UHGV virus genome: UHGV-0153635
Direction: 5' to 3' (one strand)
DNA from: a virus
Length of the DNA stretch: 44,021 nt
Under the pieces are notes generated by a model. The model had not been told where the DNA came from. It did not search any database and saw only the letters and a list, made by a program, of their open reading frames with translations. Of the stretch, positions 3,847 through 41,672 are shown in pieces. A program made the translations under genes and the position numbers. How positions within the stretch are numbered: the first letter of the stretch is position 1; the number at the start of each line of letters is the position of its first letter.

Positions 3847-3998
3847 GATAGTACACCTTTAGTTAATGAGCCTATCAAGACACTAGCCGGATTGTTAAAG
3901 AGCGCTACTGCCTACTACTTATCGATTATCCAGGCTTCGTATGCCCTGGCGCTACTCCCCGTTACCGGGCGGCTCCTTGCCTCTCGATGTTGTGTTCA

Positions 3999-4026
3999 CT
4001 ATAAACAGGGCACTTCTAAATGTCAA
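3999..4026 (-). promoter_or_regulatory. sigma70-type promoter candidate (TTGACA - 17 bp - TATAGT), reading toward lower coordinates
   Basis: Minus strand reads TTGACAtttagaagtgccctgttTATAGT; hexamers and 17-bp spacing read directly. Confidence 0.5.
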
Positions 4027-4029
4027 ACT

Positions 4030-4515
4030 TTATTTTGCTCTGTGGAACTCTTTTGTTAATGCCGCGCTCACACGGACAGCCGCTGAGTGCGCAACCTCTG
4101 CGCTGCTATAACCCTCCTTGCAATAGCGCTTACCGTCCACCACTACCACGTATTTAAAACCGTCTACAGTTCGCTGCACCCATTTAAAACCGCTGGTATT
4201 ATTAGCCGGACGTTTACTATTGTGCCTGTTCTGCTGAGGTGTTGCAGCTCTCAGATTCTCCACTCTATTATCTTTTGGATTCCCGTTAATGTGGTCAACA
4301 ACCTCTGGGTAGAACCCGTGGTGCAGAGCAAATATAATCCTGTGTATACAGTAGTATGCGCCATCTACACGGATTACTCGGTAACCTTTAGCAATCTGAG
4401 TACCTAATGGTTTATTGGCCTGCCGCCCTTTACCAGGCACCCTCCAGTACAGAACGCCCTTTGTACTTTCATATCGCATGTTGCTACGCACAAAATCTAA
4501 ATCTAAATCCGCCAT
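4030..4515 (-). CDS. HNH homing endonuclease (paralog family member 1)
   Basis: VDHINGNPKDNRVENLR...QQNRHN HNH motif; ATG 4515 with AGAGGG RBS (track start 4551 is further upstream). Confidence 0.8.
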   Translation of the reverse strand: MADLDLDFVRSNMRYESTKGVLYWRVPGKGRQANKPLGTQIAKGYRVIRVDGAYYCIHRIIFALHHGFYPEVVDHINGNPKDNRVENLRAATPQQNRHNSKRPANNTSGFKWVQRTVDGFKYVVVVDGKRYCKEGYSSAEVAHSAAVRVSAALTKEFHRAK

Positions 4516-4634
4516 ATAATACCCTCTTAGTGTGTTGAAAAAGGGAAGCACTGTACAGCTAGTGCCTCCCCTCGGTTAATGTCACTGCCCGCACCGCATT
4601 AGCAGCGCTTTCCCGGTGCAACGTAAGCTATAGG

Positions 4635-5661: not shown

Positions 5662-5689
5662 CCTCTGTAGTTAAAGCTGTGGCTAATCC

Positions 5690-5945: not shown

Positions 5946-6159
5946 TGGTAAGCACAGGCCCCCACCCCACCCCGGCCTTAGTTATGGCTGAGGCACCCCC
6001 TATGGGGGAACTGAGGGGCGTTGAGGGTGAGGGCCAGCCTCGCGTAAGTATAACATTTTTAGGGAGCGAGTATACACCTGCCCCAGTGACAATCCCATAC
6101 TAAGCCTGCCAGCTCTAGCAAGCCCAATGCACTGGCACTGAGCCTGCTCAGGGACCAAC

Positions 6160-11044: not shown

Positions 11045-11045
11045 C

Positions 11046-11345
11046 TTAAATAATCCCTGCTAAATCATCCTCTGGGTCTGCCCCGGCCTGGGCTAATAGC
11101 TCCTCAGCCTTGGCTTTACGCTTGGCTGCTAGCTCATCCTCGAATACATCCCGCAGCTCCTGCATCTCCGCAGAGTCTGCATCTGCCGTGATGTCATTGT
11201 CCTTGAGGAATTTCGCTATCACGGATTTATCCGCCGCAGGTAAAGGAATCTCCTCCTCCCCCGCCTGCTTGAGTTCGCTAATTAGCGCCTCAGTAAACAT
11301 CCTGTGAAGTTCGCTGAGGCGGCTCTTGGTTGCCGCCTTTGCCAT
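11046..11345 (-). CDS. terminase small subunit (T7 gp18-like)
   Basis: ATG 11345..11343 overlaps the tail-fiber stop (TAATG); acidic ~99-aa product; track ORF 11046..11519 trimmed to this internal Met. Confidence 0.55.
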   Translation of the reverse strand: MAKAATKSRLSELHRMFTEALISELKQAGEEEIPLPAADKSVIAKFLKDNDITADADSAEMQELRDVFEDELAAKRKAKAEELLAQAGADPEDDLAGII

Positions 11346-16566: not shown

Positions 16567-16662
16567 TGTATTCCCTCAAAAGAATTGTGATAAGAGCAGG
16601 GGCCGAAGCCCCTTGCTTTAATTAAACTAGTCTATTTCCTAGTAGCCAAGATAAGGACCACC

Positions 16663-17055
16663 TCACTTTCTGCCGAACGGAGTAAACCATTCCTGCTGAG
16701 ACGAGTGCCTACCCTTATCCAGACTCTCTTGGATGTTATCCGAATGAGTTACTGGACGCAGGTGACGGGGATTAATACAAGCAGGGTTATCGCAAGAATG
16801 CGCAAGTTCGAGTTCAGCCTGGTCGTAGTCACCTTTGTGGAGCACGTATGACACCTTGTGCGCCCCTAGGTTCTTACCACCTATCTTGAACCTCCCATAA
16901 CCATACTGGTCCTTACTCCCCAGGTACTCTATGCAACCATCCTCCTTGACAGTGCTAAGTCTATACAGCCGACTGTATGGATTCTCCCTACATGGCTGGG
17001 ATACCATCCAATTAAAGTCGTACACGATGCATCCTCCGTTAGAAGCGGGTTCCAT
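16663..17055 (-). CDS. HNH endonuclease (distinct from the other four); start uncertain
   Basis: ELAHSCDNPACINPRHLRPVTHSDN motif; track ORF runs to GTG 17130 overlapping the upstream gene, ATG 17055 chosen. Confidence 0.7.
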   Translation of the reverse strand: MEPASNGGCIVYDFNWMVSQPCRENPYSRLYRLSTVKEDGCIEYLGSKDQYGYGRFKIGGKNLGAHKVSYVLHKGDYDQAELELAHSCDNPACINPRHLRPVTHSDNIQESLDKGRHSSQQEWFTPFGRK

Positions 17056-19723
17056 ACAGCCAACTGCGGAAGTTCTCTTCCAAGTACTTCTTACGTGATG
17101 GCTGCGCCTGCTTGTACGCTGGTTGTGCACGCAGAGTCTGCCAGGCCTTACCCTCGGCTTCGGAGACCGGGTACTGGTAAGCCCCTACAGGTTGCTTCTG
17201 CGCTTTACGAACCTGCGCTACTGCTTCTGCTACTGGAGCAGAACTACCGTTACCGCCGTGATAGTTCAGGTCAAACATAACCTTCATGGCTTCATCTGTT
17301 GCTGGTAAAGCGTTAGACTTAAGCTGCTTCTGCACGGCCGGGAGGTACTGCTTCTCCATGCTGGTCTTCAGCACAGACACAGCCCAGGCTGGTGTAAGCT
17401 CCTTAGGAACAGGCATACCGGACTTGTCATGCAGGCCAAAGCCTACGCTACCATTGCCCTTCTTAGCCCTGTATCCTTCGAACTGCATGGTATTAGCTGT
17501 AATCTCAGAGAACAGGTTCGGGTCTACACCAACAGTGTTCTTCCCATCCACGTTCATCTGCACAGTACGCCCGTTGTCATGGTCGTAGAAAGTTGCTGGT
17601 CTAGAGCCTACAGCGGTGCTGCCAATCTTGACACCGCCAGCCAGGGCCTTGTCATAACCTTCCTGAGCCAGTTCTTGTACCTGTGAGTTGTTGATGCTGA
17701 CGTTATGCATTAAGCCATCAGTATCAATTACAGTAGCAGTGAGGTTCTGCCCACGGGAACCAGCAGTCCCCGCCTGGATGATAACTTTCTGCACTTTACT
17801 AGGGTCTACAACGCCATCTACAGCATCTTGTACAGTCTGCTGCAACGCGGTGGTGTACTGCTGAGTATCCCCCTGATAGCTACCCATGAGGTCCTTCATA
17901 GAGGAGCCTGCTGGCAGGTACACATGCCGTGGCTTACCTGCTACGTCAATCTCAAGCTTACGTGCCTGGATGTTCCCAGCAAGCATAGTGCTGATATCCT
18001 CAGCGCTCTTACCTACCAGTGCCTCGGGGTTAGTACGGTACAGATAACGGTATTCCGCCTCCATAGCAGCACGCCCTTCCTGACGCTGCATATCCGCAGT
18101 GTCTCCGAAGCTGAACCAGTTAGCAGTGCCCTTGGCATCCAGCATATCCTCGGTAGGATTCACTGCTAGGTTGTTGTAGCGTCCAGAAGCCTTGTTCTGT
18201 GAGAGTCTGCGGATATCATCCAGCATGATGTTGCTGGCGTTACTAGGCCCCTGAGAGGCTGCGCGCTGCACTACGCCCTTCCAATCCCCCGGTACAGAGT
18301 CCAGCAGCGCCATCTTGCCTACATCAGTGCTTTGTTGGTACATCTGCACCCATGTAGCGATGGTAGCTTGGTTCTCTGCGGAGATTTGCCCATCCTCTCC
18401 GAGCTGGTCCAGACTCGCTAAGGTATTAGACAGGTTCTTGGACATACGAGACTGTGCAGTCTGAATAGCCCACGGGTCCTTACTGGATGCTCCGTACTGC
18501 GCTAGCAGGATGTTACCTTGCGCTGTATCAGGGAACTGCCCCAGGACTTGGTTACGAGCCTTATCGACGTCTCCGCCGAACATACCTGCCAGTACCGTGG
18601 TGGGCGCATTACTAGAGATTACGTTCTGTAGCGCGTACTTAGCAGACGCCTGCTCACGCAGCTTGTTGGCACTATCCCAGATTTCCATCTGAGTGCCTGG
18701 GCTGAGCACATCCATCTTGCCGTACTTAATTAACTCTGCACGGATAGTCTGCATACCTTGCTCTTGCTCCTCAGGGGAAGCACTTTGCAGAATCTGCAAC
18801 TGGTCCGATATATTAAAACGTACCTCAGATTCAAGCTGAGCGCCTGCGCGCTTAAACTCTGAGTACAGCGCCTTGTTAACCTCGACTGCGTTAACACCCA
18901 GCTCCCGTGTAGCGAGTTGCTGTAGCTTGTCGATGAGCATAGGGTCTGTCGTGTTCTGAGCGATACTAACCAGGTAGTTCTTAGCACGGTCCAGCTTCTT
19001 ATCTTTGTCCAGGTGCGCAGCGCCTAGGATAGCTTCCATACCGCCCATCACAGCGCCCTCGGCAGCGCCTGCTTGCCCCTGCTCGATACGCGCGTAGAAC
19101 TCATCAGAGCTAGCGCTCAGGTTCTTATCTAAGGCACGGTCAGCTTGTACTACAGCGAACTCTGCACGCCCTTTCTGGAACGCTACGTAGTTGCCTGCGC
19201 TGGTCATTTGCAACTGCTTCAGGGCGGCTGCTTGGGACTGCTTATCCATCTTAGGGAGGTACAGTCCGAGCTTATCTTGCATCTGCTGTACGTACTTCTG
19301 CTCCTGCTGATGGAACTCCTGGTCAGACATTCCAGACAGCGCTGCATCACTAGCACGCTTAACAGAATCAGCTTTCCACCGGGCTAGCTCCCCGCTAGCC
19401 GCAGCTTGTAAGTACCCTTCCTGGTAATACCCCCGGAGCAGGAACCCTTGCTTCTTAACGTTCTCGTCCAGTTCCCCGGCAGCATCCATAGAGCCTTGAG
19501 CATCCATAGCGCCACGTACAGCAGCCTTAGCGCCCTCAGCTTCTACACCCTGCTGAAACCCTACTGTAAAATCCCCGAAGAACTTCTCTACTGCGGCCCT
19601 ACGATTCAGGGATGCCTGGTCAATAGTAGGAGCACCCACGCCTACAGCGAAGTCTACCTGAGAGGGTGCTAGCTCAGCAGCCCCCAGATTCAGGCCCTGT
19701 CGCTGTGTATTAATTACTGGCAT
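17039..19723 (-). CDS. internal virion protein (T7 gp15-like)
   Basis: 894 aa; position; ATG 19723 with GGGAG RBS. Confidence 0.65.
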   Translation of the reverse strand: MPVINTQRQGLNLGAAELAPSQVDFAVGVGAPTIDQASLNRRAAVEKFFGDFTVGFQQGVEAEGAKAAVRGAMDAQGSMDAAGELDENVKKQGFLLRGYYQEGYLQAAASGELARWKADSVKRASDAALSGMSDQEFHQQEQKYVQQMQDKLGLYLPKMDKQSQAAALKQLQMTSAGNYVAFQKGRAEFAVVQADRALDKNLSASSDEFYARIEQGQAGAAEGAVMGGMEAILGAAHLDKDKKLDRAKNYLVSIAQNTTDPMLIDKLQQLATRELGVNAVEVNKALYSEFKRAGAQLESEVRFNISDQLQILQSASPEEQEQGMQTIRAELIKYGKMDVLSPGTQMEIWDSANKLREQASAKYALQNVISSNAPTTVLAGMFGGDVDKARNQVLGQFPDTAQGNILLAQYGASSKDPWAIQTAQSRMSKNLSNTLASLDQLGEDGQISAENQATIATWVQMYQQSTDVGKMALLDSVPGDWKGVVQRAASQGPSNASNIMLDDIRRLSQNKASGRYNNLAVNPTEDMLDAKGTANWFSFGDTADMQRQEGRAAMEAEYRYLYRTNPEALVGKSAEDISTMLAGNIQARKLEIDVAGKPRHVYLPAGSSMKDLMGSYQGDTQQYTTALQQTVQDAVDGVVDPSKVQKVIIQAGTAGSRGQNLTATVIDTDGLMHNVSINNSQVQELAQEGYDKALAGGVKIGSTAVGSRPATFYDHDNGRTVQMNVDGKNTVGVDPNLFSEITANTMQFEGYRAKKGNGSVGFGLHDKSGMPVPKELTPAWAVSVLKTSMEKQYLPAVQKQLKSNALPATDEAMKVMFDLNYHGGNGSSAPVAEAVAQVRKAQKQPVGAYQYPVSEAEGKAWQTLRAQPAYKQAQPSRKKYLEENFRSWLYGTRF

Positions 19724-23810: not shown

Positions 23811-24806
23811 TTAAGAGAAGGTGAATTTAGCTACTGCTGCGGTGTCCGGACGACGCTCACCAACGTTATACATAGCGTAGCAATCCAGTACATTCGCGAA
23901 GTTCTCCTGATCATCCCAGATACGGGAAGTGAATGGCTTAGCTTCGACAGTTACCAGTGTCTTGGACTTGCTGAACGTAACCATACGGCAGTTAGCATCG
24001 TCTGCGGTAACGGTGAATGCAGAGCCCAATGGGTGCGTACCAGCAGCAGTAGGGAACTCGGTGCATTCTACAACCGGGATACCGTTCATCTTAACTACGC
24101 GACGGTTCTTGTAACCATCTTCATTGGTCATACCGAAGTCGCGGTCGAACAGCTTCGGATGCTCCAGCAGCATAGAGTAAGTATCTACGTCAACCAGAGT
24201 AACCATATCCGCCAGCGGAACCTTACGCTTAATCAGCTCATCAATACCAGCTTTATGCGCGAGGTTAATAGCCTCGGCGTTAGCTTCACGAGCAGCCTGG
24301 TCAGCAGGGGTAGCGTCTACAGTTACTGGGATTTCGATACCATCACTGAACGCAGGCTTCAGGTGCGCAGGAGCAACCCAGGAACGGCCCTTGATGAGCT
24401 GAATCAGGTGCGCCTGGTCGAAGGTCTCTGCGAACTCAGAGCCGTTGTTCTGACCCATCTCAGTTAGGAAATCGGGAGCAGTCCAATCGTCCTGGTAGTC
24501 AATAGGGTTACGGATGTACAGCACGGTCTCGACAGTGATAATCATCTTGTCGTTACGTACTGGGGTCGGGTCCAGAGCTACGCCAGAGGTACGGCCCTTA
24601 ACGGTGCTGGTGTTCAGACGGTCAATACGGTACGTGTTAGAGCGGTCAGCGGTAGAGCGCTGGGTAGACAGTCCCAGGAAGATAGCCTGGTACTGGAAAC
24701 GTGTATCCACTTCGTTCTGGTAGACCTCTAAATGCAGATCCACATCAGAAGCAGCCCCACCCCAGTGTGGGCGGGTCAGGTTTCCAGTGTACGCTGTGTT
24801 GGCCAT
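23811..24806 (-). CDS. major capsid protein
   Basis: 331 aa; between scaffold and T-phi-like terminator; ATG 24806 with AAGGAA RBS. Confidence 0.8.
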   Translation of the reverse strand: MANTAYTGNLTRPHWGGAASDVDLHLEVYQNEVDTRFQYQAIFLGLSTQRSTADRSNTYRIDRLNTSTVKGRTSGVALDPTPVRNDKMIITVETVLYIRNPIDYQDDWTAPDFLTEMGQNNGSEFAETFDQAHLIQLIKGRSWVAPAHLKPAFSDGIEIPVTVDATPADQAAREANAEAINLAHKAGIDELIKRKVPLADMVTLVDVDTYSMLLEHPKLFDRDFGMTNEDGYKNRRVVKMNGIPVVECTEFPTAAGTHPLGSAFTVTADDANCRMVTFSKSKTLVTVEAKPFTSRIWDDQENFANVLDCYAMYNVGERRPDTAAVAKFTFS

Positions 24807-24818: not shown

Positions 24819-25298
24819 TTATTTAAGAGTATGAGGCGATGCCGCCTCGTGATATTTAGCCTTAGCTGTTAGGTAGGCAGCTCTAGCGGCTTCGGGGGTC
24901 TTGAAATACCCAAAGTACACCAGCTTGCCATGACGCTTTAGACTTACCTTATAACGCCGCTCTGCGGGTATGTAGGTGTATCCCAAGTGTCGGCGGTTCT
25001 GCATGTTTTCGTAAGCGGTTACTAGTCGCAAGTTCTCTACGCGGTTGTTGAGTTTATCCCCGTCTATATGGTCAATCACCATACCATCCGGCACAGGGCC
25101 GTGGTGCAGGCACCAGACCACAATATGAGCCATTGTTGATAATTTACCACGACTTCCACGGTTCCAGCTAGCGCGTCTGTACCCGAAAGAGTTTACCTCT
25201 GTGTCCCCATAACGTCCCGTGCGCTTACTTCTAATACGCCCGGTTGACTGCTCGTATGAATACCTATCAAAGAACTCTACAGGTAGGTCCCTATACAT
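24819..25298 (-). CDS. HNH homing endonuclease (paralog family member 2)
   Basis: VIDHIDGDKLNNRVENLR...ENMQN; ATG 25298 overlaps scaffold stop. Confidence 0.8.
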   Translation of the reverse strand: MYRDLPVEFFDRYSYEQSTGRIRSKRTGRYGDTEVNSFGYRRASWNRGSRGKLSTMAHIVVWCLHHGPVPDGMVIDHIDGDKLNNRVENLRLVTAYENMQNRRHLGYTYIPAERRYKVSLKRHGKLVYFGYFKTPEAARAAYLTAKAKYHEAASPHTLK

Positions 25299-26152
25299 TA
25301 TAACCCCTTAGCTTTCCCCGCAGCTCTGCGTGATAACAGATTCTGATAGCGCTGGGCGAACTTAGGAGATTCTAAGCTACGATTCCCGGCCTCTTTGCGA
25401 AGTGCTAGGTACTCTTTAGAGAAGTCCGCTGCGGACAATGCACCGTCCAGAGCAGCACCTCCTTTGAGGATACCAGCTTCCTTAGCGATTAAACCCAGAC
25501 CTTGTACAGTCTCAACAACCAGTTTAGCAGCGCCAGCTACATCCCCAGAGTTAGCAAGAGCACGGGCAGCAGCTCGGACATGCTCAGACGCCTTAGCGTT
25601 GAACAGTTGCGATGCTGTCTCCCAGTTCTGCTTACCACCTACGAGGTCGTATGCCGCTGTAACCGCCCGCTGAGCCTGGCCTATCTGATCATCGAGGTAT
25701 GCCTTTGCAAGCAGCTCAGCGTACTGTGCATGCTCACCAAAGCGCTCTTTGATGAAGGCCGAGTCAATGAGATTCGGGTCGTTATACTCCACTGCTTTCC
25801 CAATAGCGCGAACCATGTCCGCATCATTGAGCTTTGACACCTGCTTCAACATGGCGATACCGGCGTCGATAGCTGGGTTCCCTGTCGTTGCGAGTTCTGT
25901 TTGAGCTTCTGCTTGAGGCTCTGCTGCTTCAGGCTTACCGTGCTTAGCCAGAGCCGCAGCTAACGCCTCCACATCAAAGGCGGGAGGCTCGGCACCCTGT
26001 GTTGGGGCTGCTGCCGTAGCTGCTTGTTCCTGCGGTACGCCCTGCATGTTCGGGGCTTTAGGACCGGGGCCGCCAGGAATCTTAGGGCCGCCTACGTTCT
26101 CTAGTACCGTTGTCTCTGGTGCCGCTGCTGCGGCGGTAGTAGTGTCTGTCAC
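25298..26152 (-). CDS. capsid assembly scaffolding protein
   Basis: 284 aa, Ala-rich and acidic; between portal and capsid; start is GTG in the track. Confidence 0.6.
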   Translation of the reverse strand: MTDTTTAAAAAPETTVLENVGGPKIPGGPGPKAPNMQGVPQEQAATAAAPTQGAEPPAFDVEALAAALAKHGKPEAAEPQAEAQTELATTGNPAIDAGIAMLKQVSKLNDADMVRAIGKAVEYNDPNLIDSAFIKERFGEHAQYAELLAKAYLDDQIGQAQRAVTAAYDLVGGKQNWETASQLFNAKASEHVRAAARALANSGDVAGAAKLVVETVQGLGLIAKEAGILKGGAALDGALSAADFSKEYLALRKEAGNRSLESPKFAQRYQNLLSRRAAGKAKGL

Positions 26153-26167: not shown

Positions 26168-27733
26168 TTATGCGATTAAGCCCAGTTGCTGAGCCGCTTG
26201 ATTAGGGTCTGCTGCCTGAAGAGCCTGTTGTTGCTGCTGCGCTGCTTGAGCTGCTCGCGTATCCTCCTGCTCCTGCAACTGCTTCAACTGCTCTTCCGTG
26301 TAGAAGAACTTGCTGCTGTTGATACCGAAGCTATCAAACACCGTATCAATCAAGGCATCCACGTTAGTACGCTTAGTGTACGTTTGTAGCACAGGTACAA
26401 TCAACTGCAAGGACTGCGTAGCTTCCAGTAGGCGGTCATTCTGCGCTGCTTTAGCGAGGGCTGCTGTACCCACCACGACATTCAGTGTCATAGCTTGCAG
26501 GTCCAACAGCGGCTGCATCTGCGGGTACAGCTCCAGACAGTACAGGTACGCCAGCTTAGTAAGCCATACGCTGCTTAGCTGACTGTACGCATCCCCCAGA
26601 GCCTCCTGTGCCTCCTGAGCATTCTGACGAATCTCATACGCCGTAACACGCTCTGCATCCCTGGTGTTGCCTCCGTACATAAACGCGCGGGCAAGACGTT
26701 GCTCAATGCTGGCAATCTCAGCCTGCATGACCTGAATCTTCTGGTAGACGCCGCCCTCATAGGCCCATATACCGGGGCCAGTAGTACCAGCCGGGGCATT
26801 AGTCTGGATGATGTCCCCTACCGCAGCTTCGTTGAATGCGTCGATATCTACACCGGATGCAGAGTTAGACATGTTCACAAAGCGCATAGCTTCAACTTCG
26901 TACAGCGTCAGGGCTTTACTCAGCTCAGATAATCTAGCGAACTCACCCGCGTAGTCCTCAACCAGCCCACGCCCGTAATGCTCAGAGTTAACGCGGTTCC
27001 AGACCAGTACCGTGTACGGGCACTGTTTCTCCGGATAGTAGCTAGGCTCGCCAACAGGTTTATTATCAACCTCCTGGTACACCTTGTAGACTACTGCACC
27101 GCCTTCTCGCACCTCACGGCATACGCCTGTATAGAGTTCCAGGTCCTCGTAATCTGCCTTGTTGTCGTACTGGATACGGTACTCATCGGGTAAATCCCCA
27201 ACGCAGATACGCTCCTTCAGGACAATCAGCATTACATCGCCAGAGCCATTACGCTTAACCGCGTAATCTCGGATGCTGTAGATATGAGAGCGCTGACGCT
27301 GCTTATCCCGGTACTCCAGGGCATTCCCTGTAACCATCAGCAGCTTCGTAGCGTGCAGCTTCGCAGCGTACTCTTCGTCTTTGTAGACCTGTGCCGACGC
27401 AGCCAGCTCAATCTCTGCCTGTACACTCGGTACTTCGCCCTGGATACCCAGCTCACCAACTACACCAGCCAGCTCATCGCTGTCTACGAAGCGGAAGAAC
27501 GGTGCTCCTTGAGGGAACAGCGATTTAACCACCTTGGTACTAGCGGTGTTAATCAGGATAGCTCCGAGGCTCTGGTAGTCCCGGTGCAGCGCCGAGCGCT
27601 TGCCGTCCATACCGGACAGGTCGCGCGTGAACACTGTGGGCAAAGACCACTCCGCGAATTTTTCAGCAGCTGTAAGGCATGAACTATCTTGCAGCTTAGC
27701 AAACAGCCCCGCTAGAGGCTCTTTAGGTTTCAT
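26168..27733 (-). CDS. portal (head-tail connector) protein (T7 gp8-like)
   Basis: ATG 27733 with GGAGG RBS (track GTG 27739 rejected); ATG overlaps the HNH stop as ATGA. Confidence 0.8.
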   Translation of the reverse strand: MKPKEPLAGLFAKLQDSSCLTAAEKFAEWSLPTVFTRDLSGMDGKRSALHRDYQSLGAILINTASTKVVKSLFPQGAPFFRFVDSDELAGVVGELGIQGEVPSVQAEIELAASAQVYKDEEYAAKLHATKLLMVTGNALEYRDKQRQRSHIYSIRDYAVKRNGSGDVMLIVLKERICVGDLPDEYRIQYDNKADYEDLELYTGVCREVREGGAVVYKVYQEVDNKPVGEPSYYPEKQCPYTVLVWNRVNSEHYGRGLVEDYAGEFARLSELSKALTLYEVEAMRFVNMSNSASGVDIDAFNEAAVGDIIQTNAPAGTTGPGIWAYEGGVYQKIQVMQAEIASIEQRLARAFMYGGNTRDAERVTAYEIRQNAQEAQEALGDAYSQLSSVWLTKLAYLYCLELYPQMQPLLDLQAMTLNVVVGTAALAKAAQNDRLLEATQSLQLIVPVLQTYTKRTNVDALIDTVFDSFGINSSKFFYTEEQLKQLQEQEDTRAAQAAQQQQQALQAADPNQAAQQLGLIA

Positions 27734-28182
27734 ACCCACGCCTCCACTGGACAGTTAGTATGTTTAGCAGCCTTAGCACGCATATAAGCTGCGCGAGCAT
27801 CTAGGATTGTACTGAAAGACCCTAGATGCTCAACCCCGTAATTGGTCCCTATGGCTGCGCAGAATGAGTAGCCGTTCCAGAAGAATCCTTTGCGCTTAGC
27901 ATTCTGAGCATTCTCTGCACGGGTAGCCGCACGTAAGTTAGATGGGGAGTTATTGGTTCGGCAGCGGTCTATGTGGTCTACCAGCTCAGGCCAATACCCG
28001 TGCGTTAGGTAGAACACTACGCGGTGTGCTTTGTAGGACACCCCTTTAATCTCGCCACAGTAGTAACCGTCCACTACTGTTTTCAGAGCAGGTTCACCAA
28101 CCTTGCACCGAGGACGTGCCACCTTCCAGGATAGCCCTGTAGGGCTGCTTGGGTCAATCTGCACTAGGTCTTGAATCTGCAT
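27730..28182 (-). CDS. HNH homing endonuclease (paralog family member 3)
   Basis: LVDHIDRCRTNNSPSNLR...AENAQN; ATG 28182 with AAGGAG RBS. Confidence 0.8.
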   Translation of the reverse strand: MQIQDLVQIDPSSPTGLSWKVARPRCKVGEPALKTVVDGYYCGEIKGVSYKAHRVVFYLTHGYWPELVDHIDRCRTNNSPSNLRAATRAENAQNAKRKGFFWNGYSFCAAIGTNYGVEHLGSFSTILDARAAYMRAKAAKHTNCPVEAWV

Positions 28183-28918: not shown

Positions 28919-29287
28919 TTAGGATTTGTCCTGCTGCATCAGAAAAGCTATCATCCCTGCTCTTAAATGGTTAGTATCCTGTACTAGCACGTAATCTCCA
29001 TCTCCGTAAGGTGCTCTGGCTGTGTAGCAAACCCGTCCGCCTGAAGCCCCATCAGGACCGTAGTGTACTGTAATCTCTATACGGTTACGGTTTAGGATAC
29101 GCCATGCATCTGCTGGGTTGTTGCAGTAGTCCCGTGAGAAGCCGCCGTACCCATTGTCCATATAGACAACTGAGGAGTTCTGCGGGAAGGTTTTATTGTT
29201 GCATTCTGGTGATTTATTAATATCTGGCCAGAAAACATCGCTCACTCTTTTATTGATTTCAAAATCTGATAACTGTGAATAGTCCAT
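28919..29287 (-). CDS. hypothetical protein (~122 aa) in an AT-rich islet
   Basis: ATG 29287 with GAGAGG RBS, 10 nt after the RNAP stop; track start 29323 would overlap RNAP. Confidence 0.5.
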   Translation of the reverse strand: MDYSQLSDFEINKRVSDVFWPDINKSPECNNKTFPQNSSVVYMDNGYGGFSRDYCNNPADAWRILNRNRIEITVHYGPDGASGGRVCYTARAPYGDGDYVLVQDTNHLRAGMIAFLMQQDKS

Positions 29288-29297
29288 ATTATACCTC

Positions 29298-31739
29298 TCA
29301 ACAAAAGAAGAATGGGGATTCAAGTACTTGCGTTAAGTCCAGAGTGCCTTTCTGAGGCATCTCTAAACCTTCCAGGTCTGCGCCGCACTCTACCGCTGCG
29401 TCAGCCAGCGTTTGCAACGGGTCGTGCTCGGTGTACAAGCGCAGGAACTGCTCACGAATAGCTTTATGCATTGCGTCAACATCACAGGCATGCGTAGCCA
29501 GCGAGTCATGGATAGGCAGGATATCACCGTCGAAGGCGTTCAGTACCATCATCAGGTGCGTACTATCCAGCGAGTGCACGAAGTTCGGAGCGATACCAGA
29601 CTTAGCCTTACGGCGATTGTTCTGCTCGTAGTTACGGTTGTAACTGAGCAGGTACGTCAGGTTCATACTCTGAACTTTAACCCGGCACTCATCAGACTCT
29701 GTGTAGCGGTTAATGACCAACCCACCCAGCGGAGTCTTCCACTGTAAGTGCCGCTTAGTCGGGACACGTCCTGTAATCTGCTGAGCAAAGCGCATAGCCT
29801 TGGCAGCCGCAGGGTTAGCCTCCTCTACAGCAGCGCGCATACGCGGAGCTAAGTACCCTGCGAGCTTAAACAGGCTATACTCCTCAGTAGGCTCATAACC
29901 CTCATCCTTAGCACCCAGTAGGATGTACTCAGAGCAACTGCGTACAGTCGCAGAATACACATAGGTCATACAGGGGCGCTTGGTCATACTCCTAGTAATT
30001 GGGTTCTCTCTCCAGTACGTAGCCTGCACTACGTGCTCTGGGTCAGTGAGGTCCATGATTACCTTGGAGTCCGTGCGCTCCTTCACGTCCATGTACATAT
30101 CCGCTTTCTCTGCGTTACCCTCCCAGAACAGGTTCGTTAAGCGCCCACCGATTGGGTCCCGGAGCATTGCGCTGTAGTGCTGAGAACCCGAGTTTGTAGC
30201 GTCCATAGCGACTGGTACGTGCGATACATACTCTCGCGGCTCCACAGAGCTAAGAGCATTAACAAGCTCGACTGCTGCTGCCAGGAAGCACCATGGACTA
30301 TCTGCCTGTTTAAAAGCGTCCGAATTAAATGGGTCATCTGCCAGGCGTCTAATCGCTTCATAGTTCGCATCAGCCCAAGCTGCACGGGCTTCGAATAGGG
30401 CTTTGTCATAACCAAAGCAAGTGGCGACATGCACCTTGAGCCAAAATAATCCACGCTCCCCAAGCGGTTTTCCGCGACCAAATTCAAGCAAGGCCTTCTG
30501 CAAATCAGAACCTTGTGGGTGCAGGCTGGACTTGAAGTACAGGCGGTATCGCCAATCCACACAAGTCGGGAAGTACAGCTCTGTTTCATCTTTGAACTCC
30601 TCGCACATACTTACGGTTGTAACCAGGGCGCGAAGCTGCCCTACGCGAGTACGCTCATCCGCGTACCACTGGCGCATATGCATCTTCCACTCCTGGAACT
30701 CCTCAAGCTCACGCTCAGTGTACTCTTCCTTAGGCACACCATCCAAGCGCCACTCTGGTTTAGGGGCTGGGTTGCTGCTAGGCATGCCTGTGCTTACTCC
30801 CAAGGCACGCGCCTGCTGCACCAGCTTCAGCATAGTCTTATTAATACGGTACGGCACTTCCTGAGCACGATTCAGAGCCTGCTGTAACTGCGGAGCCTGC
30901 TTGAACGCCTCGGCTACTTCACGCTTCATGCTTCGCTGAATCTGTGAGTTGCTGTAAGTACCGCGTCTATCAATGTCCGTGAGGTATCCACCGGAGAACA
31001 TCGTATCATGCGGCTGCGGCGGGATAAGCATAGGTGGCTTCAGCTGCACTGTATCGGCGTGCTCTACCAGCTCAGACAGTACCTGCTCCAGCGCTGGGGC
31101 TGGGGTGAGATACTGCAACTGCGTCTTATCGCGCTTGCTCCACACGAACAGCCCGGTTTCCCACACCGCCTGCATCAAGAGCTTGCCCACGGAGATGCAC
31201 TGTGAGTTCGACCAAGGCTCATGCTGGTAATGCACGTTCTCAGCAGAGGCACGCAAGGTCTTCAGGATATGCGAGGGGCTGGTGGTATTACGTTCCTTCA
31301 GGTACTCATGCACCCGGTTCATATATGCCGGGGCTACAGCCTGGAGCTGCACAGCCAGTAGCTCCGCCTGAACCTGACGGCCCAGCGCAGAGAGCACGGA
31401 CTGTGCTGAGCTGGCACTGTTAGTGCCTACGTTAGAGAATAGCGAATCGAAGCACTTCGTCAAGGACATTACGGCCAGGACATCCGTAGGGATTAAGCGC
31501 AGGAACGCGCGGTACTTAGCGCCTACACCAGCAGTCTTCTCCTGCTTAGTGCTGTTGATGCCTGCGCATACAGTGTCGTATGCAGCCGCAATCATACGCT
31601 GCACTGGCGGCAAGGTGCTGAGGCTACCAGAGTCCAGGGCTTTCTGCACCAGGCTCTTGCTGCGCTCCAGGCTGCGTGTACGGTACTGCTGCTCTAGCTG
31701 GAGCTGTCGCTCTGTGCGTTCTTCTAAGGTTTCTTTCAA
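29298..31739 (-). CDS. single-subunit DNA-directed RNA polymerase (T7 RNAP family)
   Basis: 813 aa; SGSQHYSAMLRD, IAPNFVHSLDSTH, C-terminal ESPFFFC align with T7 RNAP motifs; TTG start with GAGGA RBS. Confidence 0.95.
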   Translation of the reverse strand: MKETLEERTERQLQLEQQYRTRSLERSKSLVQKALDSGSLSTLPPVQRMIAAAYDTVCAGINSTKQEKTAGVGAKYRAFLRLIPTDVLAVMSLTKCFDSLFSNVGTNSASSAQSVLSALGRQVQAELLAVQLQAVAPAYMNRVHEYLKERNTTSPSHILKTLRASAENVHYQHEPWSNSQCISVGKLLMQAVWETGLFVWSKRDKTQLQYLTPAPALEQVLSELVEHADTVQLKPPMLIPPQPHDTMFSGGYLTDIDRRGTYSNSQIQRSMKREVAEAFKQAPQLQQALNRAQEVPYRINKTMLKLVQQARALGVSTGMPSSNPAPKPEWRLDGVPKEEYTERELEEFQEWKMHMRQWYADERTRVGQLRALVTTVSMCEEFKDETELYFPTCVDWRYRLYFKSSLHPQGSDLQKALLEFGRGKPLGERGLFWLKVHVATCFGYDKALFEARAAWADANYEAIRRLADDPFNSDAFKQADSPWCFLAAAVELVNALSSVEPREYVSHVPVAMDATNSGSQHYSAMLRDPIGGRLTNLFWEGNAEKADMYMDVKERTDSKVIMDLTDPEHVVQATYWRENPITRSMTKRPCMTYVYSATVRSCSEYILLGAKDEGYEPTEEYSLFKLAGYLAPRMRAAVEEANPAAAKAMRFAQQITGRVPTKRHLQWKTPLGGLVINRYTESDECRVKVQSMNLTYLLSYNRNYEQNNRRKAKSGIAPNFVHSLDSTHLMMVLNAFDGDILPIHDSLATHACDVDAMHKAIREQFLRLYTEHDPLQTLADAAVECGADLEGLEMPQKGTLDLTQVLESPFFFC

Positions 31740-33231: not shown

Positions 33232-33669
33232 TTAGGCATTATCCTGCTCCAGTTCTATAGCGCGCTTAGCGCTCTCGTAGATGTTCTGGAGGTCCTCGGC
33301 AGCGTCTTTATGACCACGCTGCCCTACTGCCAGAGCCTTCTTGATGAGGTGCTGTAGTGCCGGGTTAACTACGGAGAAAGCACGCAGCACGTCATATACA
33401 TCCACAAACACCCCCGGCTTAATCTCCCGCAAGTACTTTACACCGTCCTGCGGCTGGCGCACCGGGTCAGACTTCGCTGCTTCAGCGGCAGGCTCTTCAT
33501 CCCAATCTATCAGCAGGGCGGAGAAGCCGTGCCAATGCTCGCATATAGAACCGTCCCAACACACACGGTAGCCACTGAAGGTCTCACCAATGATTGTTCC
33601 GGATAACCCCACATACCGACTATCACTACCTACATACTTTACGCGCCTACCAGTTGCAGTCTTACCCAT
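33232..33669 (-). CDS. hypothetical protein (145 aa)
   Basis: ORF track; ATG start. Confidence 0.5.
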   Translation of the reverse strand: MGKTATGRRVKYVGSDSRYVGLSGTIIGETFSGYRVCWDGSICEHWHGFSALLIDWDEEPAAEAAKSDPVRQPQDGVKYLREIKPGVFVDVYDVLRAFSVVNPALQHLIKKALAVGQRGHKDAAEDLQNIYESAKRAIELEQDNA

Positions 33670-38655: not shown

Positions 38656-41029
38656 AGTACTCCTCAACGCTAGGTGTGTGTGTTTTGCTGTACATGCTCG
38701 GACCATGCTCTGCTGCCGCAGGGAATGGTACTTGCGAGATGATGCCGTAGTTAGGCCACAGTGCAGCGATGCGACGCGGCGCTTCCTCCATGCATTCCTT
38801 GACCAAGTTACCAGCTAGCACGGCAGTTTCCTCATCAGCACTGTCCAGATACAGGGCGTCGTGTACGTTAGTAATCAGGCACACCTTACCACCAAACCAA
38901 TCCTTAGCAATCAGATTACGCAGCACTTGCCCAGCGGCGATTGCCATGAGAAAGAACGCTTCTGATTGGCACCAGTAGTTAGCTAGCTCTGTGCCTTTGT
39001 AATCCATCACCTGCACTTTCCTTCCGCCGCCCTCGGGAACCTGCCACTGAAGTTTCTGCCTGAATGACAGGCGTGTACCCGCTGGGCTGGTCCAGTACCC
39101 TCGGCGATACAAACGCCACTGCCCATCCTCGCACTGCTCACGCAGCACAGGTTCCAGCATCCCGGTGCGCTCAACCTCGGCGCGTACTACATCACGGAAG
39201 CCAATGGTTGTAGGGAACAGCTTAGCCTCGTTATCCAGGAAGCTCTGCGCGTACTCCACGGTACAGCCTGTAGCAAACGCAATCCCCTTGGCTGTAGCGC
39301 CATATTGCGCTGCGAAGCTCGGGGGCTTGATGTCTGTACGCTGCTGCTTCCAGTACTTGTAGTCCGGTCCATCCTGGTTATGGCAGAGCTGGTACATCTC
39401 CTCGTAGCTCTTGCCTTCCTTGAAGGCTAGGCGGTAGCAGTGCATGTCCGTGTCTTTCTGGAGTAGCTCAAGTAGTTTAAGGTCTCCTGTATGAACACAG
39501 GACATAACCACTTCCAGGGCCGAGTAGTCAACTTCAGTGATACGACCAGACTCTCCGAAACGAGAGGTGAACATCTGTTTAACCCGACTTGTCCCATCGC
39601 GCGGTAGATTCTGGAGGTTCGGATTGGACGCTGAAAGACGCCCTGTGACGGTACTGCATGTATTAAGACGGTGGTGGATAATACCTGAACCATCAGGGTT
39701 CTCAGGTATGACGTACTGAAGCATGCCCGAGGTCTTCTTAACTGAGCCATCTTTATTGTACTCCGTGCGAAGGTAGTAAGTTCCCGTGTCTTTCTCCAGC
39801 GCAGCCAGCTCATTCACTAACTTAGCGAACTCGAAGCCCTGCGCAGCCAGGCCGTTCATTGCATCACCGCTGGTGCTGTACACTGGGGAACCGTCAGGCA
39901 GTACCTGAGCACCTCTGAACTCCCCGCGCTCACTGTACTTCTCCTGTAAATGCTGCGGTAGCTCCTGAATGTTCACGATGCCGGGGAAGTTGTAGATGCC
40001 CTTGCCCCACTTCAGCTTCTCCTTGTCAGAGTCTACCCGGAATACCTTGGGCATACCCTTGTTCTTACCCGCAGCGTAAGTTACATAGTTATGATTACCA
40101 CTAACATCAGTTTCTGCGCACGGTACGTAAGTACTGTCGCTGCCCCGCACCAAGTACGCATCATACTTCTCGTACTGCGGCGGGTCATACGGAACCTTCA
40201 TGTCATAGCGAATAGGTCCGCCATACACCAGCGCAGACATATGATAGTTGCTACCGTAGTTGAACTCGAACTCTTCCGGCAGGTCCTTAGGCAGGTACTG
40301 CTGCAACTGCTGACGCAGCTCCTGAATGCGCTGCTCCTGCTCAGCTTGGTTCCGCTGCGCTACAGGCATGTTTACGTAAAGGCCGAAGAACTCACAGTAC
40401 GCCCAAGCCAGCATAGCATCCATACGCTCCCAGACCATCTGCATTTGCCCGCGCTCTGCGAAGATACTGCACTGTCCGTAGAAGCACAGGGCCGTATTTG
40501 GCACGTCACCATTCACCAAGTAATCCCTCAGTAGAATGGGGTCTATCTCTGAGGTTAAAGCGCCTTGTTCCCACAGTAACTTAACCCCATCAATCTTATG
40601 CTCACCGCCGTACTTAGGTGCGGTTTCGTCTAGAGAGGGGTACAGGTCCTGAAAGTCACTAGCAATATAATGTCCATGCATCGTGTCAAATACTCGGCCC
40701 CCGCGCTTCAAGAACTCCTCGAAGTGCTGACGCTGATAGGTCAGGAACCAGCTAATCTCGAACGCCGCGTTATGCGCTACAAGGAGCCAACAATCGCTGG
40801 GTATACGGAACCACAGATGCTCCCCGGCTACATCATCCAAGAACTCCTGCTTGCTGTTGAAGCGAATGTCAAAGGTCGGCTCTACAGTAACCGTACCATC
40901 ATCATGGGCCCTGTCGATGCGGTAGGCTGAGTGCACTACGTAGTTGTCAGGGCAATAAGGACTAGCCTTGCTGCCGTAGTACGGGTGATTCTCGACCTCA
41001 AGGTCAATCGTCATAATGCTACTAGTCAT
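38633..41029 (-). CDS. DNA polymerase, family A with 3'-5' exonuclease domain (T7 gp5-like)
   Basis: 798 aa; N-terminal exo motif TIDLEVEN; ATG 41029 one nt after the HNH stop. Confidence 0.9.
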   Translation of the reverse strand: MTSSIMTIDLEVENHPYYGSKASPYCPDNYVVHSAYRIDRAHDDGTVTVEPTFDIRFNSKQEFLDDVAGEHLWFRIPSDCWLLVAHNAAFEISWFLTYQRQHFEEFLKRGGRVFDTMHGHYIASDFQDLYPSLDETAPKYGGEHKIDGVKLLWEQGALTSEIDPILLRDYLVNGDVPNTALCFYGQCSIFAERGQMQMVWERMDAMLAWAYCEFFGLYVNMPVAQRNQAEQEQRIQELRQQLQQYLPKDLPEEFEFNYGSNYHMSALVYGGPIRYDMKVPYDPPQYEKYDAYLVRGSDSTYVPCAETDVSGNHNYVTYAAGKNKGMPKVFRVDSDKEKLKWGKGIYNFPGIVNIQELPQHLQEKYSERGEFRGAQVLPDGSPVYSTSGDAMNGLAAQGFEFAKLVNELAALEKDTGTYYLRTEYNKDGSVKKTSGMLQYVIPENPDGSGIIHHRLNTCSTVTGRLSASNPNLQNLPRDGTSRVKQMFTSRFGESGRITEVDYSALEVVMSCVHTGDLKLLELLQKDTDMHCYRLAFKEGKSYEEMYQLCHNQDGPDYKYWKQQRTDIKPPSFAAQYGATAKGIAFATGCTVEYAQSFLDNEAKLFPTTIGFRDVVRAEVERTGMLEPVLREQCEDGQWRLYRRGYWTSPAGTRLSFRQKLQWQVPEGGGRKVQVMDYKGTELANYWCQSEAFFLMAIAAGQVLRNLIAKDWFGGKVCLITNVHDALYLDSADEETAVLAGNLVKECMEEAPRRIAALWPNYGIISQVPFPAAAEHGPSMYSKTHTPSVEEYYASSHSV

Positions 41030-41030: not shown

Positions 41031-41519
41031 TTATAGTCCGTGATTATTGTGGTACCCGGCTGCTTCAGCCGCCAACCTCCGGCACTCTATGGCTTGCTCG
41101 ATATTACCGAAGGACCCTAACTGTTTATTTCCAATAGTTGCTATCCAACGATTACCTTTCTTGTATACCCCGACGTAACCGCTGCGATTGCTTTTGTATA
41201 AAGACTTGTTCTGCATGTTTTGCTCTGGTAGCACTGCTCTTAAATTATCTGGAGTATCATCTAACCTATTATGGTTTATGTGGTCTACATGATAACCTGC
41301 CCGCAGCGGCCCATTATGCATCTCATATACTATCAAACTTCTCTTATATAACTTGTTGTGTAGCTTAATGTACCAGTACCCGCACACCTTGTTTAAGGTG
41401 CCCGCTTCGGAACCTGCTGCACAATTTAGACGGCTACGCCCGCGTCCGCTGCGAACTTCATGCTTCCAATAAAGCTTGCCATCTCTGTATGTAAACCAAG
41501 TACCCCAATTCATTTCCAC
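41031..41519 (-). CDS. HNH homing endonuclease (paralog family member 4), AT-rich
   Basis: HVDHINHNRLDDTPDNLR...EQNMQN; visibly lower GC than the flanking polymerase and helicase genes. Confidence 0.8.
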   Translation of the reverse strand: MEMNWGTWFTYRDGKLYWKHEVRSGRGRSRLNCAAGSEAGTLNKVCGYWYIKLHNKLYKRSLIVYEMHNGPLRAGYHVDHINHNRLDDTPDNLRAVLPEQNMQNKSLYKSNRSGYVGVYKKGNRWIATIGNKQLGSFGNIEQAIECRRLAAEAAGYHNNHGL

Positions 41520-41672
41520 TTAGCCCTCCGAGCCTTGTTAATCGCCAGGTGCACTATGAGCTGGCTTGACTCTAGCGCGTAGCTTTTACGGGAAGTACGT
41601 GCAGATGCAGCGTAGGCCTTAATGACCTCGTAGTCCCGGTCAGTGACGTCTTCTTTAGTCAGCATGTTACTC

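What the first reader, a model, noticed from the sequence alone, without database searches (positions are those of the whole stretch)
24819..25298. Five free-standing HNH endonuclease genes, four of them clear paralogs, inserted at classical homing hotspots
HNH genes sit at 4030-4515, 24819-25298 (between scaffold and capsid), 27730-28182 (before portal), 41031-41519 (before DNA polymerase) and 16663-17055 (between internal virion proteins). Four share the HRxxF..HG..P..VDHIxG...NRxxNLR...N core; the fifth has a distinct DNPACINPRHL type. Several overlap neighbours by ATGA/TAATG and the polymerase-adjacent copy is AT-rich. Five is a high load for a genome of this size and implies active intron-less homing.
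Basis: partly seen in the sequence, partly recalled or inferred. Interest (0 to 1): 0.55.

Follow-up and report, generated by a model that had tools for sequence, protein, structure and literature searches.

The report
Five mobile HNH nuclease genes in phage
This 44-kb phiKMV-like Enterobacter/Salmonella-type phage genome really does carry five small free-standing HNH homing-endonuclease genes wedged between essential genes, but this is a well-known kind of selfish DNA in this phage group, so the finding is correct and ordinary.

Summary
Exactly five HNH ORFs exist, all on the minus strand and all above Pfam's HNH_3 threshold. The catalytic residues are intact in all five.

Four (4030-4515, 24819-25298, 27730-28182, 41031-41519) are I-HmuI-like. 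The focal one has a modelled C-terminal AP2-like domain. The fifth (16663-17025, not 17055) is a short His-Cys-box-like variant that lacks the C-terminal region of its homologs.

The window is a complete, circularly permuted Koutsourovirus genome, about 86-90% identical to phiKDA1 and four other relatives. Three HNH genes are clean indels absent from four or all five relatives. Across the six genomes the HNH count runs from 0 to 5, spread over about ten sites.

The "paralogs" are only 30-46% identical, and each has better matches in other phages. They were acquired independently, not duplicated.

The polymerase-adjacent copy differs by 2-3 of 489 nt from two relatives, with identity decaying into the polymerase gene. 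It recurs at the same site in Drulisvirus. This looks like a homing and co-conversion footprint.

Two copies were inserted exactly at the start codon of the portal and polymerase genes, taking over their ribosome-binding sites.

Five is the maximum in this genus but is not exceptional: phage CB5 also has five. Verdict: new members of a known kind. Nuclease activity is untested.

The parts
24819..25298 (-). H3, the focal gene: a 159-aa I-HmuI-like HNH endonuclease with a C-terminal AP2-like domain, between the scaffold gene (25298-26152) and the capsid gene (23811-24806)
   Evidence: Pfam HNH_3 78.1 bits. I-HmuI 1U3E matches by sequence at E 4e-9 with D76/H77/N89/N98 aligned. The AF2 model has pLDDT 88, and its top PDB fold hit is 1U3E (E 6e-6). 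The C-terminus superposes on AP2 domains at about 1 A. The gene is absent from 4 of 5 relatives. phiKDA1 has a 42%-identical HNH at the same site, and Drulisvirus has 44-46% homologs there.
27730..28182 (-). H4: a 150-aa HNH_3 endonuclease inserted exactly at the start codon of the portal gene
   Evidence: Pfam 54.9 bits. The 446-bp indel 27733-28178 is absent from all five relatives. Relatives read TAAGGAGCTAAGATGC|GTGGAACC (portal start), while the window reads TAAGGAGCTAAGATGC|AGATTC (HNH start). The nearest homologs (44-46%) sit at other sites.
26168..27733 (-). Portal gene with a replaced initiation region: a new GGAGG..ATGA start is supplied by the 3' end of H4, and the N-terminus reads MKPKEPLAGL instead of MRGTKEPLAGL
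   Evidence: Junction alignment. An independent gene call gives 521 aa overlapping the HNH stop.
41031..41519 (-). H5: a 160/162-aa HNH_3 endonuclease immediately upstream of the DNA polymerase gene; AT-rich; probable start at ATG 41513
   Evidence: Pfam 48.8 bits. GC is 45.0%. It differs by 2-3 of 489 nt from SDFMU_Pec and KKP 3828. It is 86-90% identical in protein at the same site in Drulisvirus. Its 90% cluster has 46 members. The 5' junction shows capture of the polymerase RBS and ATG: GGAGGGCTAAGTGGAAATGA|....
40170..41029 (-). 5' ~860 nt of the DNA polymerase gene: a candidate co-conversion tract linked to H5
   Evidence: Identity to the H5-carrying relatives is 98/95% (nt 1-300), 96/97% (301-600) and 91/92% (601-860), then 81%. 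For nt 1-300, identity is 81-82% to H5-carrying Drulisvirus but 58-64% to H5-less genomes of either genus. Caveat: two H5-less Drulisvirus genomes have the same allele from about nt 50 onward.
16663..17025 (-). H2: a 120-aa short His-Cys-box-like HNH (AHSCDNPACINPRHL) between the two large internal virion protein genes (17039-19723 and 12856-16566)
   Evidence: Pfam HNH_3 26.6 bits (cut-off 24.8), with PF05551 below its threshold. phrog_1872 matches at E 8.5e-26 but covers only profile positions 18-119 of 166. C31, H76, C78, C83, H88 and N97 are invariant among homologs, which are 146-193 aa and carry an extra C-terminal region. The 368-bp insert 16665-17032 is absent from all five relatives and flanked by a GAGG microhomology. 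Kayfunavirus carries 37-39% homologs at the same site.
4030..4515 (-). H1: a 161-aa HNH_3 endonuclease in the variable early region
   Evidence: Pfam 53.9 bits. phrog_99 matches at E 1.8e-46. The region 3643-4570 has no counterpart in any of the five relatives. The best phage homolog is 44% identical. GC is 46.9%.
3998..4026 (-). Near-consensus sigma-70 promoter-like site (TTGACA-17-TATAGT) directly downstream of the H1 stop codon
   Evidence: 11 of 12 matches in the scan; sequence read. This is a consensus match only.

Best explanation
The window is a complete Koutsourovirus (phiKMV-like, Autographiviridae) genome that has independently acquired five free-standing homing endonuclease genes of the His-Me-finger (HNH) superfamily.

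Four are I-HmuI-like enzymes with an N-terminal beta region and an HNH core. A C-terminal AP2-like DNA-binding domain is modelled for the focal copy and inferred by alignment for the other three. The fifth is a short zinc-binding His-Cys-box-like variant.

Proposed mechanism (inferred):
1. During co-infection with a related phage that lacks the gene, the enzyme nicks or cuts the empty allele close to its own insertion point.
2. Recombinational repair from the HNH-carrying genome copies the gene and a variable stretch of flanking DNA into the recipient.
3. The carrier allele is protected because the insertion splits the site and the flanking codons differ.

Each gene is packed so as not to disturb its essential neighbours:
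- H4 and H5 are inserted exactly at the start codon of the portal and DNA polymerase genes. They use that gene's ribosome-binding site and ATG, and carry a replacement RBS and ATG in their own 3' end.
- The stop codon of H3 regenerates the capsid RBS.
- H2 sits just after a pre-existing GGAGG.

Shown here: the identity, fold and catalytic residues; the precise presence/absence polymorphism; the junction architecture; and the identity gradient around H5. Inferred: nuclease activity, target sites, and present-day mobility.
For: - Family and catalytic residues.
- Fold of the focal protein.
- Exactly five copies.
- Precise indels against five relatives, and a 0-5 copy census over about ten sites in the genus.
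- Independent acquisition, with external homologs better than internal ones.
- Site-specific lineages across genera: scaffold|capsid, upstream of the polymerase, and gp15|gp16.
- H5 is near-identical between phages that are otherwise about 88-90% identical, with identity decaying with distance into the polymerase gene.
- Lower GC and GC3 than the core genes.
- Start-codon capture at the portal and polymerase genes.
- Literature: sporadic HNH homing endonuclease genes between replication and structural genes of phiKMV-like phages, five of them in CB5 (PMC6115819); HEGs cluster beside essential genes and mark exchange boundaries (PMC10448857); I-HmuI-like HNHs cluster by insertion site and show marker exclusion in Skunavirus (PMC12724721).
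Against:
- H1-H4 have no near-identical copies outside this phage lineage (the IMG/VR scans for H3 and H4 were empty), so recent movement is undocumented for four of the five.
- H2 lacks the C-terminal region present in all of its homologs that were aligned and may be inactive.
- The link between H5 and the window-type polymerase 5' allele is not absolute. H5-less JKT1 and PWKp2 carry that allele from about nt 50 onward, and mtp6 carries it behind a different upstream ORF.
- Mosaic recombination unrelated to nuclease activity could also produce local identity peaks.
Confidence: 0.85

Rival explanations
1. Some or all of the five are decaying relics: former homing endonuclease genes that are fixed in this lineage and no longer cut anything. 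They would be at the late stage of the invasion, fixation, degeneration and loss cycle.
For: H2 is 120 aa against 146-193 aa for its homologs. It ends right after the nuclease core and matches only positions 18-119 of the 166-position phrog_1872 profile. H1-H4 are singletons in the databases, with 90% clusters of 2-5 members.
Against: All five ORFs are uninterrupted and keep the catalytic His and the Asn/Asp (or the Zn ligands). H1, H3, H4 and H5 are full-length relative to phrog_99 and to their homologs. H5 shows signs of very recent exchange.
Confidence: 0.3
2. The nucleases are retained because they benefit the phage, not because they are purely selfish. Possible benefits are interference competition against co-infecting relatives, stimulation of recombination or module exchange, or a role in DNA metabolism or packaging.
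For: The published HEG work retrieved here frames these genes as drivers of phage genome evolution, not only as selfish elements (PMC10448857; PMC12724721, which also reports marker-exclusion activity of expressed HNH endonucleases). Start-codon capture ties expression of the portal and polymerase genes to the HNH 3' ends, which would penalise simple deletion.
Against: One congener has none of them, and the others have different sets, so none is required. None lies next to the terminase genes (9194-11519), so the HK97 gp74-type packaging role does not fit. phiKDA1-type phages have direct terminal repeats.
Confidence: 0.15
3. The four similar genes arose by duplication within this genome (true paralogs) and then spread to new intergenic sites.
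For: All four fall in the same Pfam family and PHROG (HNH_3, phrog_99) and share the same domain order.
Against: Pairwise identity is only 30-46%, at 40-67 bits. Each has a better match in another phage: H5 at 86-99%, H3 at 46% over the full length and 131 bits, H1 at 134 bits, H4 at 110 bits. H3 and H5 belong to lineages tied to their own site in another genus.
Confidence: 0.03

Closest known systems
I-HmuI (Bacillus phage SPO1 intron-encoded HNH nicking endonuclease, PDB 1U3E)
   Same: Same HNH_3 catalytic core, with the D-H...N(LR)...N residues aligned. There is a sequence match at E 4e-9 and the top fold match at E 6e-6, including the N-terminal beta region. Both are associated with a phage DNA polymerase gene (own knowledge for I-HmuI; for H5).
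   Different: I-HmuI is encoded inside a group I intron and ends in a helix-turn-helix domain (own knowledge). The window genes are free-standing ORFs between genes, and the modelled C-terminus of H3 is AP2-like. Identity is only about 20-30%.
Free-standing HNH homing endonuclease genes of phiKMV-like / KP34-like phages (e.g. Pectobacterium phage CB5 with five; Drulisvirus; phiKDA1 gp23, gp30, gp45, gp53)
   Same: Same genome type and size, the same family, and the same sporadic placement between replication and structural genes. The scaffold|capsid and pre-polymerase sites are identical (PMC6115819; PMC7013548).
   Different: The particular proteins H1-H4 are only 42-46% identical to any deposited phage homolog. 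The portal-start insertion of H4 was not seen in the relatives examined.
T4 free-standing HEGs (Seg and Mob families, e.g. mobE, SegG) and intronless homing
   Same: The proposed mechanism is the same: cleavage of the HEG-less allele near the insertion point, repair from the HEG-carrying genome, co-conversion of flanking markers, and marker exclusion (PMC2790892, PMC2988022).
   Different: The T4 Seg enzymes are GIY-YIG. No activity is demonstrated here. The evidence is comparative only.
HNH-AP2 endonucleases (HNH fused to an AP2/ERF-type DNA-binding domain)
   Same: The C-terminal 45-50 residues of H3 superpose on plant AP2 domains (1GCC, 7ET4; rmsd 0.9-1.3 A). Several database homologs carry PF00847. 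Dickeya phage BF25/12 gp41, a 44% homolog of H4, is annotated HNHc + AP2.
   Different: Pfam's AP2 model does not reach any reportable score on the window proteins themselves.
I-PpoI / His-Cys box homing endonucleases
   Same: H2 shares the H-x-C...C-x-N-P-x-H-L...N pattern. This aligns with I-PpoI H98, C100, C105, H110 and N119 (residue numbers from own knowledge).
   Different: The scores are weak: PF05551 gives 19.3 bits against a threshold of 27, and the profile against PDB gives E 0.046. H2 passes HNH_3 instead and is much shorter.

Membership tests
HNH_3 / I-HmuI-like His-Me-finger endonucleases | Match to the Pfam PF13392 profile above the gathering score | tested here: met
   53.9, 78.1, 54.9, 48.8 and 26.6 bits against a cut-off of 24.8. 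The fifth is marginal.
HNH_3 / I-HmuI-like His-Me-finger endonucleases | Conserved general-base His plus the Asn/Asp residues of the HNH motif | tested here: met
   The His is invariant across all ten aligned proteins. D-H, N(LR) and the distal N are present in four. H2 has H76, H88 and N97 plus Cys ligands.
HNH_3 / I-HmuI-like His-Me-finger endonucleases | Beta-beta-alpha-metal fold resembling I-HmuI | tested here: met
   Tested for H3 only. The AF2 model has pLDDT 88.2, and Foldseek's top hit is 1U3E at E 6e-6 with probability 1.00. The other four were not modelled.
HNH_3 / I-HmuI-like His-Me-finger endonucleases | Metal-dependent DNA nicking or cleavage | not testable with these tools
   Requires biochemistry.
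Free-standing homing endonuclease gene (intronless homing) | Own ORF between host genes, not inside an intron or intein | tested here: met
   The junctions show separate start and stop codons and intact flanking genes.
Free-standing homing endonuclease gene (intronless homing) | Sporadic presence or absence among close relatives, with precise boundaries | tested here: met
   Indels at 16665-17032, 24822-25304 and 27733-28178. The genus census gives 0-5 copies at about ten sites.
Free-standing homing endonuclease gene (intronless homing) | Co-conversion footprint: elevated identity centred on the gene, shared between otherwise diverged genomes | tested here: inconclusive
   Clear for H5: 99.5% falling to 98, 96 and 91% against about 81% further into the polymerase gene, plus a cross-genus link to the polymerase 5' end. 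H5-less genomes also carry most of that allele. For H1-H4 no second carrier is available. Only short altered flanks are seen for H3 and H4.
Free-standing homing endonuclease gene (intronless homing) | Cleavage of the cognate empty allele and super-Mendelian inheritance in crosses | not testable with these tools
   Needs cleavage mapping and co-infection crosses.
HNH-AP2 architecture | C-terminal AP2/ERF-type three-strand-plus-helix DNA-binding domain | tested here: inconclusive
   H3 shows a fold-level match: 1GCC and 7ET4 at rmsd 0.9-1.3 A over 44-49 columns, probability 1.00, but E 0.2-0.6. Some homologs carry PF00847. Pfam AP2 was not detected on any window protein.
His-Cys box (I-PpoI-like) homing endonucleases | Match to the zinc-binding-loop profile PF05551 or significant similarity to I-PpoI | tested here: not met
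   H2 gives 19.3 bits against a cut-off of 27. I-PpoI matches at E 0.85 with the single sequence and 0.046 with the profile. There is motif resemblance only.
Terminase-associated HNH (HK97 gp74-type packaging factor) | HNH gene adjacent to the terminase genes and conserved with them | tested here: not met
   The terminase genes lie at 9194-11519 (PF11123 hit). No HNH is within 5 kb, and all five are dispensable in congeners.

The most novel reading that the evidence does not exclude
Start-codon capture may be a selected anchoring strategy and not an accident of insertion. Two of the five genes (H4 at the portal gene, H5 at the DNA polymerase gene) sit exactly on the initiation codon of an essential gene. 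They take over its ribosome-binding site and ATG, and supply a substitute start from their own 3' end. Imprecise loss of the HNH gene would then cripple an essential gene, which is an addiction-like stabilisation. It would also guarantee that the nuclease is expressed together with its neighbour. If this is general across Slopekvirinae, it would explain why these selfish genes persist at the same sites across genera.
Probability: 0.15. Interest if true: 0.5.

Novelty: new member of a known kind. Interest (0 to 1): 0.25.

Why it matters
For annotation, these five genes should be called free-standing HNH homing endonucleases. The starts of the portal gene (27733), H2 (17025) and probably H5 (41513) should be corrected.

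For phage biology, the genus offers a convenient natural system. The six sequenced congeners carry 0, 2, 2, 2, 4 and 5 HNH genes at about ten sites. One of them, H5, shows a fresh exchange footprint and a candidate target around the polymerase start / Exo I motif region. Intronless homing and marker exclusion could therefore be tested directly by co-infection.

For phage therapy or engineering, such genes predict directional marker transfer between cocktail members. None of this changes current understanding of homing endonucleases.

Tried and rejected
- Intragenomic duplication was rejected, because the pairwise and external identities do not fit it.
- A sixth or different homing endonuclease was looked for in the ORFs that vary between relatives (43410-43793, 28919-29323, 33232-33669, 4953-5534, 539-1012 and others). 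Pfam shows none; 28919-29323 is NinX-like. The six-frame HMM census also finds none.
- IMG/VR scans for close relatives of H3 and H4 found nothing.
- Pfam's AP2 model did not detect the C-terminal domain on any of the five, so a structure model was used instead.
- A terminase-associated packaging role was rejected on position and dispensability.
- A simple statement that the polymerase 5' allele segregates with H5 was weakened once H5-less Drulisvirus genomes carrying most of that allele were found.

Full report
**What the window is.** All long ORFs lie on the minus strand. Megablast places the sequence in the genus Koutsourovirus (Autographiviridae, Slopekvirinae; phiKMV/KP34-like). The nearest records are Enterobacter phages SDFMU_Pec, SDFMU_EhYP, phiKDA1 and Entb_48, and Salmonella phage KKP 3828, at about 86-90% identity over aligned DNA. 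Both ends of phiKDA1, which carries 267-bp terminal repeats, map to window 5637-6062. The source is a 44,098-bp metagenomic contig (ENA ERZ507919), 77 bp longer than the window. The window is therefore a complete, circularly permuted genome.

**Checking the observation.**
- All pass Pfam HNH_3: 53.9, 78.1, 54.9, 48.8 and 26.4 bits against a cut-off of 24.8.
- A six-frame census using an HMM of phage HNHs, phmmer and a motif regex finds exactly these five.
- Ten further ORFs that vary between relatives show no nuclease domain.
- In the alignment, the general-base His is invariant. Four proteins carry D-H...N-L-R...N, and the fifth carries A-H-S-C-D-N-P-A-C-I-N-P-R-H-L...N.
- PHROGs places the four in phrog_99 and the fifth in phrog_1872.
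- The polymerase-adjacent copy is indeed AT-rich: 45.0% GC against 52.0%, the 1.4th percentile. All five have lower GC3 (0.46-0.55) than five of the six core genes checked (0.58-0.63; the sixth, the 12856-16566 internal virion protein gene, is 0.544).
- TAATG and ATGA overlaps are real at two junctions.
- Together the five genes occupy about 2.27 kb, or 5.2% of the genome.

**The focal gene, 24819-25298.** It matches I-HmuI (PDB 1U3E) by sequence at E 4e-9, with D76, H77, N89 and N98 aligned to what I recall from the literature as I-HmuI D74, H75, N87 and N96. An AlphaFold model built on 32 homologs has pLDDT 88. Its best PDB fold match is again 1U3E (E 6e-6). Its last ~50 residues superpose on plant AP2 domains at about 1 A. 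Pfam's AP2 model does not detect this domain on the window protein, but several homologs carry PF00847.

**Are they paralogs?** Only in the loose sense of belonging to one family. Pairwise identity among the four is 30-46%, at 40-67 bits. Each has a better external match: H5 at 86-99%, H3 at 46% over the full length (131 bits), H1 at 44% (134 bits), and H4 at 46% (110 bits). They were acquired separately.

**Synteny with relatives.** blastn against the five congeners gives clean breaks.
- 16665-17032 and 27733-28178 are absent from all five.
- 24822-25304 is absent from four. phiKDA1 holds a different HNH there, 42% identical.
- 3643-4570 has no counterpart in any relative.
- 41031-41519 is present in SDFMU_Pec and KKP 3828.

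An HMM census gives five HNH genes in the window, four in phiKDA1, two each in Pec, KKP 3828 and Entb_48, and none in EhYP. They are spread over about ten different sites.

**Junction anatomy.**
- *H4.* Relatives read TAAGGAGCTAAGATGC-GTGGAACC, which is the portal RBS and start. The window reads TAAGGAGCTAAGATGC-AGATTC, which is the HNH start. The HNH ends ...GGAGGCGTGGGTATGA, and the portal gene restarts at that ATG (MKPKEPLAGL instead of MRGTKEPLAGL). An independent gene call agrees (521 aa).
- *H5.* HNH-less Drulisvirus genomes read GGAGGGCTAAGTGGAAATGA-CAACC (polymerase start). The window reads GGAGGGCTAAGTGGAAATGA-ATTGG (HNH start). A new TAATATGAC polymerase start follows the HNH stop. 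Both genes have therefore captured the initiation region of an essential gene and replaced it from their own 3' end.
- *H3.* It overlaps the scaffold stop (TAATG). Its own stop codon forms the capsid RBS (TAAGGA). The last ~9 scaffold codons and the first capsid codons differ from those of HNH-less relatives. The 3' flank is shared with phiKDA1 and Drulisvirus carriers.
- *H2.* It is a 368-bp insert placed after TAACGGAGG, with a GAGG microhomology, and the flanks are unchanged. The in-frame GTG lies 7 nt after the GGAGG, homolog alignments start there, and a 120-aa gene call exists. Together these move the start from 17055 to 17025.

**Evidence for mobility.**
- *H5 across phages.* H5 differs from the Pec and KKP 3828 copies by 3 and 2 of 489 nt. 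Identity then falls to 98/95%, 96/97%, 91/92% and 81% across successive segments of the polymerase gene. The same gene, at 86-90% protein identity, sits at the same place in Drulisvirus Klebsiella phages. Its 90% cluster has 46 members, against 2-5 for the other four.
- *Polymerase allele.* Polymerase nt 1-300 of the window are 81-82% identical to H5-carrying Drulisvirus, but 58-64% identical to H5-less genomes of either genus.
- *Caveat.* The H5-less Drulisvirus phages JKT1 and PWKp2 carry the window-type allele from about nt 50 onward. mtp6 carries it behind a different upstream ORF. The differences specific to H5 carriers are therefore confined to the first ~50 nt. That stretch is the MT(T/S)SIM(H/T)IDLE... 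region, which I take to be Exo I, and it is my candidate target.
- *Other sites.* Homologs of H3 at 42-46% occupy the scaffold|capsid site in Drulisvirus. Homologs of H2 at 37-39% occupy the equivalent gp15|gp16 site in T7-like Kayfunavirus. The nearest homologs of H4 are at other sites, so the portal-start location is not a documented hotspot.

**Caveat on H2.** It is 120 aa against 146-193 aa for its homologs. It stops just after the nuclease core and lacks their C-terminal (HTH-like) region. It may be a decaying copy. Its similarity to I-PpoI is at motif level only.

**Comparison with what is known.** Sporadic HNH homing endonuclease genes between replication and structural genes are described for phiKMV-like phages. 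Pectobacterium phage CB5 has five, and PP90 has a split portal gene (PMC6115819). Closely related Drulisvirus phages differ by single HEGs (PMC7013548). HEGs clustering beside essential genes and at boundaries of genetic exchange are documented (PMC10448857). So is the clustering of I-HmuI-like HNHs by insertion site, together with marker exclusion (PMC12724721). Other Slopekvirinae records show four or five HNH-matching places. Five is therefore the maximum in this genus but not unusual for the group.

**Verdict.** They are new members of a known kind. The most interesting detail is the start-codon capture by two of the five. Interest is low to moderate.

Noticed in passing
window 5637-6062: Both termini of phiKDA1 (267-bp direct terminal repeats) map here. 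The source contig is 77 bp longer than the window, a difference I read as an assembler k-mer overlap (my inference, not checked). The window therefore appears to be a complete, circularly permuted genome with the terminal repeat collapsed to one copy.
   Followed up: partly
window 41520-41669 / 41029, and L001 8555-8992, L005 34139-34495, L020 ~1380-1500: The slot between the conserved 51-aa ORF and the DNA polymerase gene is occupied differently in different phages. It holds an H5-type HNH in the window, Pec and KKP 3828, and an H2-type HNH in phiKDA1 (gp23). Entb_48 has an unrelated 118-aa ORF there, EhYP has about 140 nt of spacer, and mtp6 has an ORF with an HTH-like end. JKT1, PWKp2 and Kp2 have nothing.
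   Followed up: partly
window 28919-29323 (-): A 134-aa ORF matching P22 NinX (PF10765, E 9e-14) sits between the RNA polymerase gene and the structural genes. Entb_48 carries an HNH gene in the same slot, and KKP 3828 carries a small unrelated ORF. This is another variable insertion slot.
   Followed up: partly
window 43410-43793 (-): A 127-aa ORF lies between the primase and helicase genes and has no counterpart in the five relatives. It has only weak sub-threshold hits, all to membrane-protein families (MFS-like, holin-like). Relatives have shorter unrelated ORFs there.
   Followed up: partly
window 16599-16612 (-): A perfect GGGGC-TTCG-GCCCC hairpin lies in the ~100-nt spacer upstream of the 1236-aa internal virion protein gene. 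It is conserved in all five relatives, with only a U/C change in the loop. It could be an RNA processing or terminator element. H2 is inserted about 50 nt upstream of it.
   Followed up: no
window 6160-7824 (-): The 554-aa ORF next to the endolysin has no nucleotide match in any of the five congeners. By its position it corresponds to the tail-spike gene that phiKDA1 annotates there, which would make it a swapped host-range module.
   Followed up: no
window 40072-40166 (-), within the DNA polymerase gene: A segment of about 75-93 nt is present in the window, phiKDA1, EhYP and Entb_48 but missing in SDFMU_Pec and KKP 3828. It lies exactly where the high-identity tract next to H5 ends.
   Followed up: no
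L002 (SDFMU_Pec) 9607-10092 and 10097: The deposited annotation of SDFMU_Pec leaves the H5 homolog unannotated. It also starts the DNA polymerase CDS at 10112 instead of the ATG at 10097. KKP 3828 is annotated entirely as hypothetical proteins.
   Followed up: partly
window 3998-4026 (-): A near-consensus sigma-70 promoter (TTGACA-17-TATAGT, 11 of 12) begins four bases after the H1 stop codon. H1 therefore sits among the early, host-RNA-polymerase-transcribed leader elements.
   Followed up: partly
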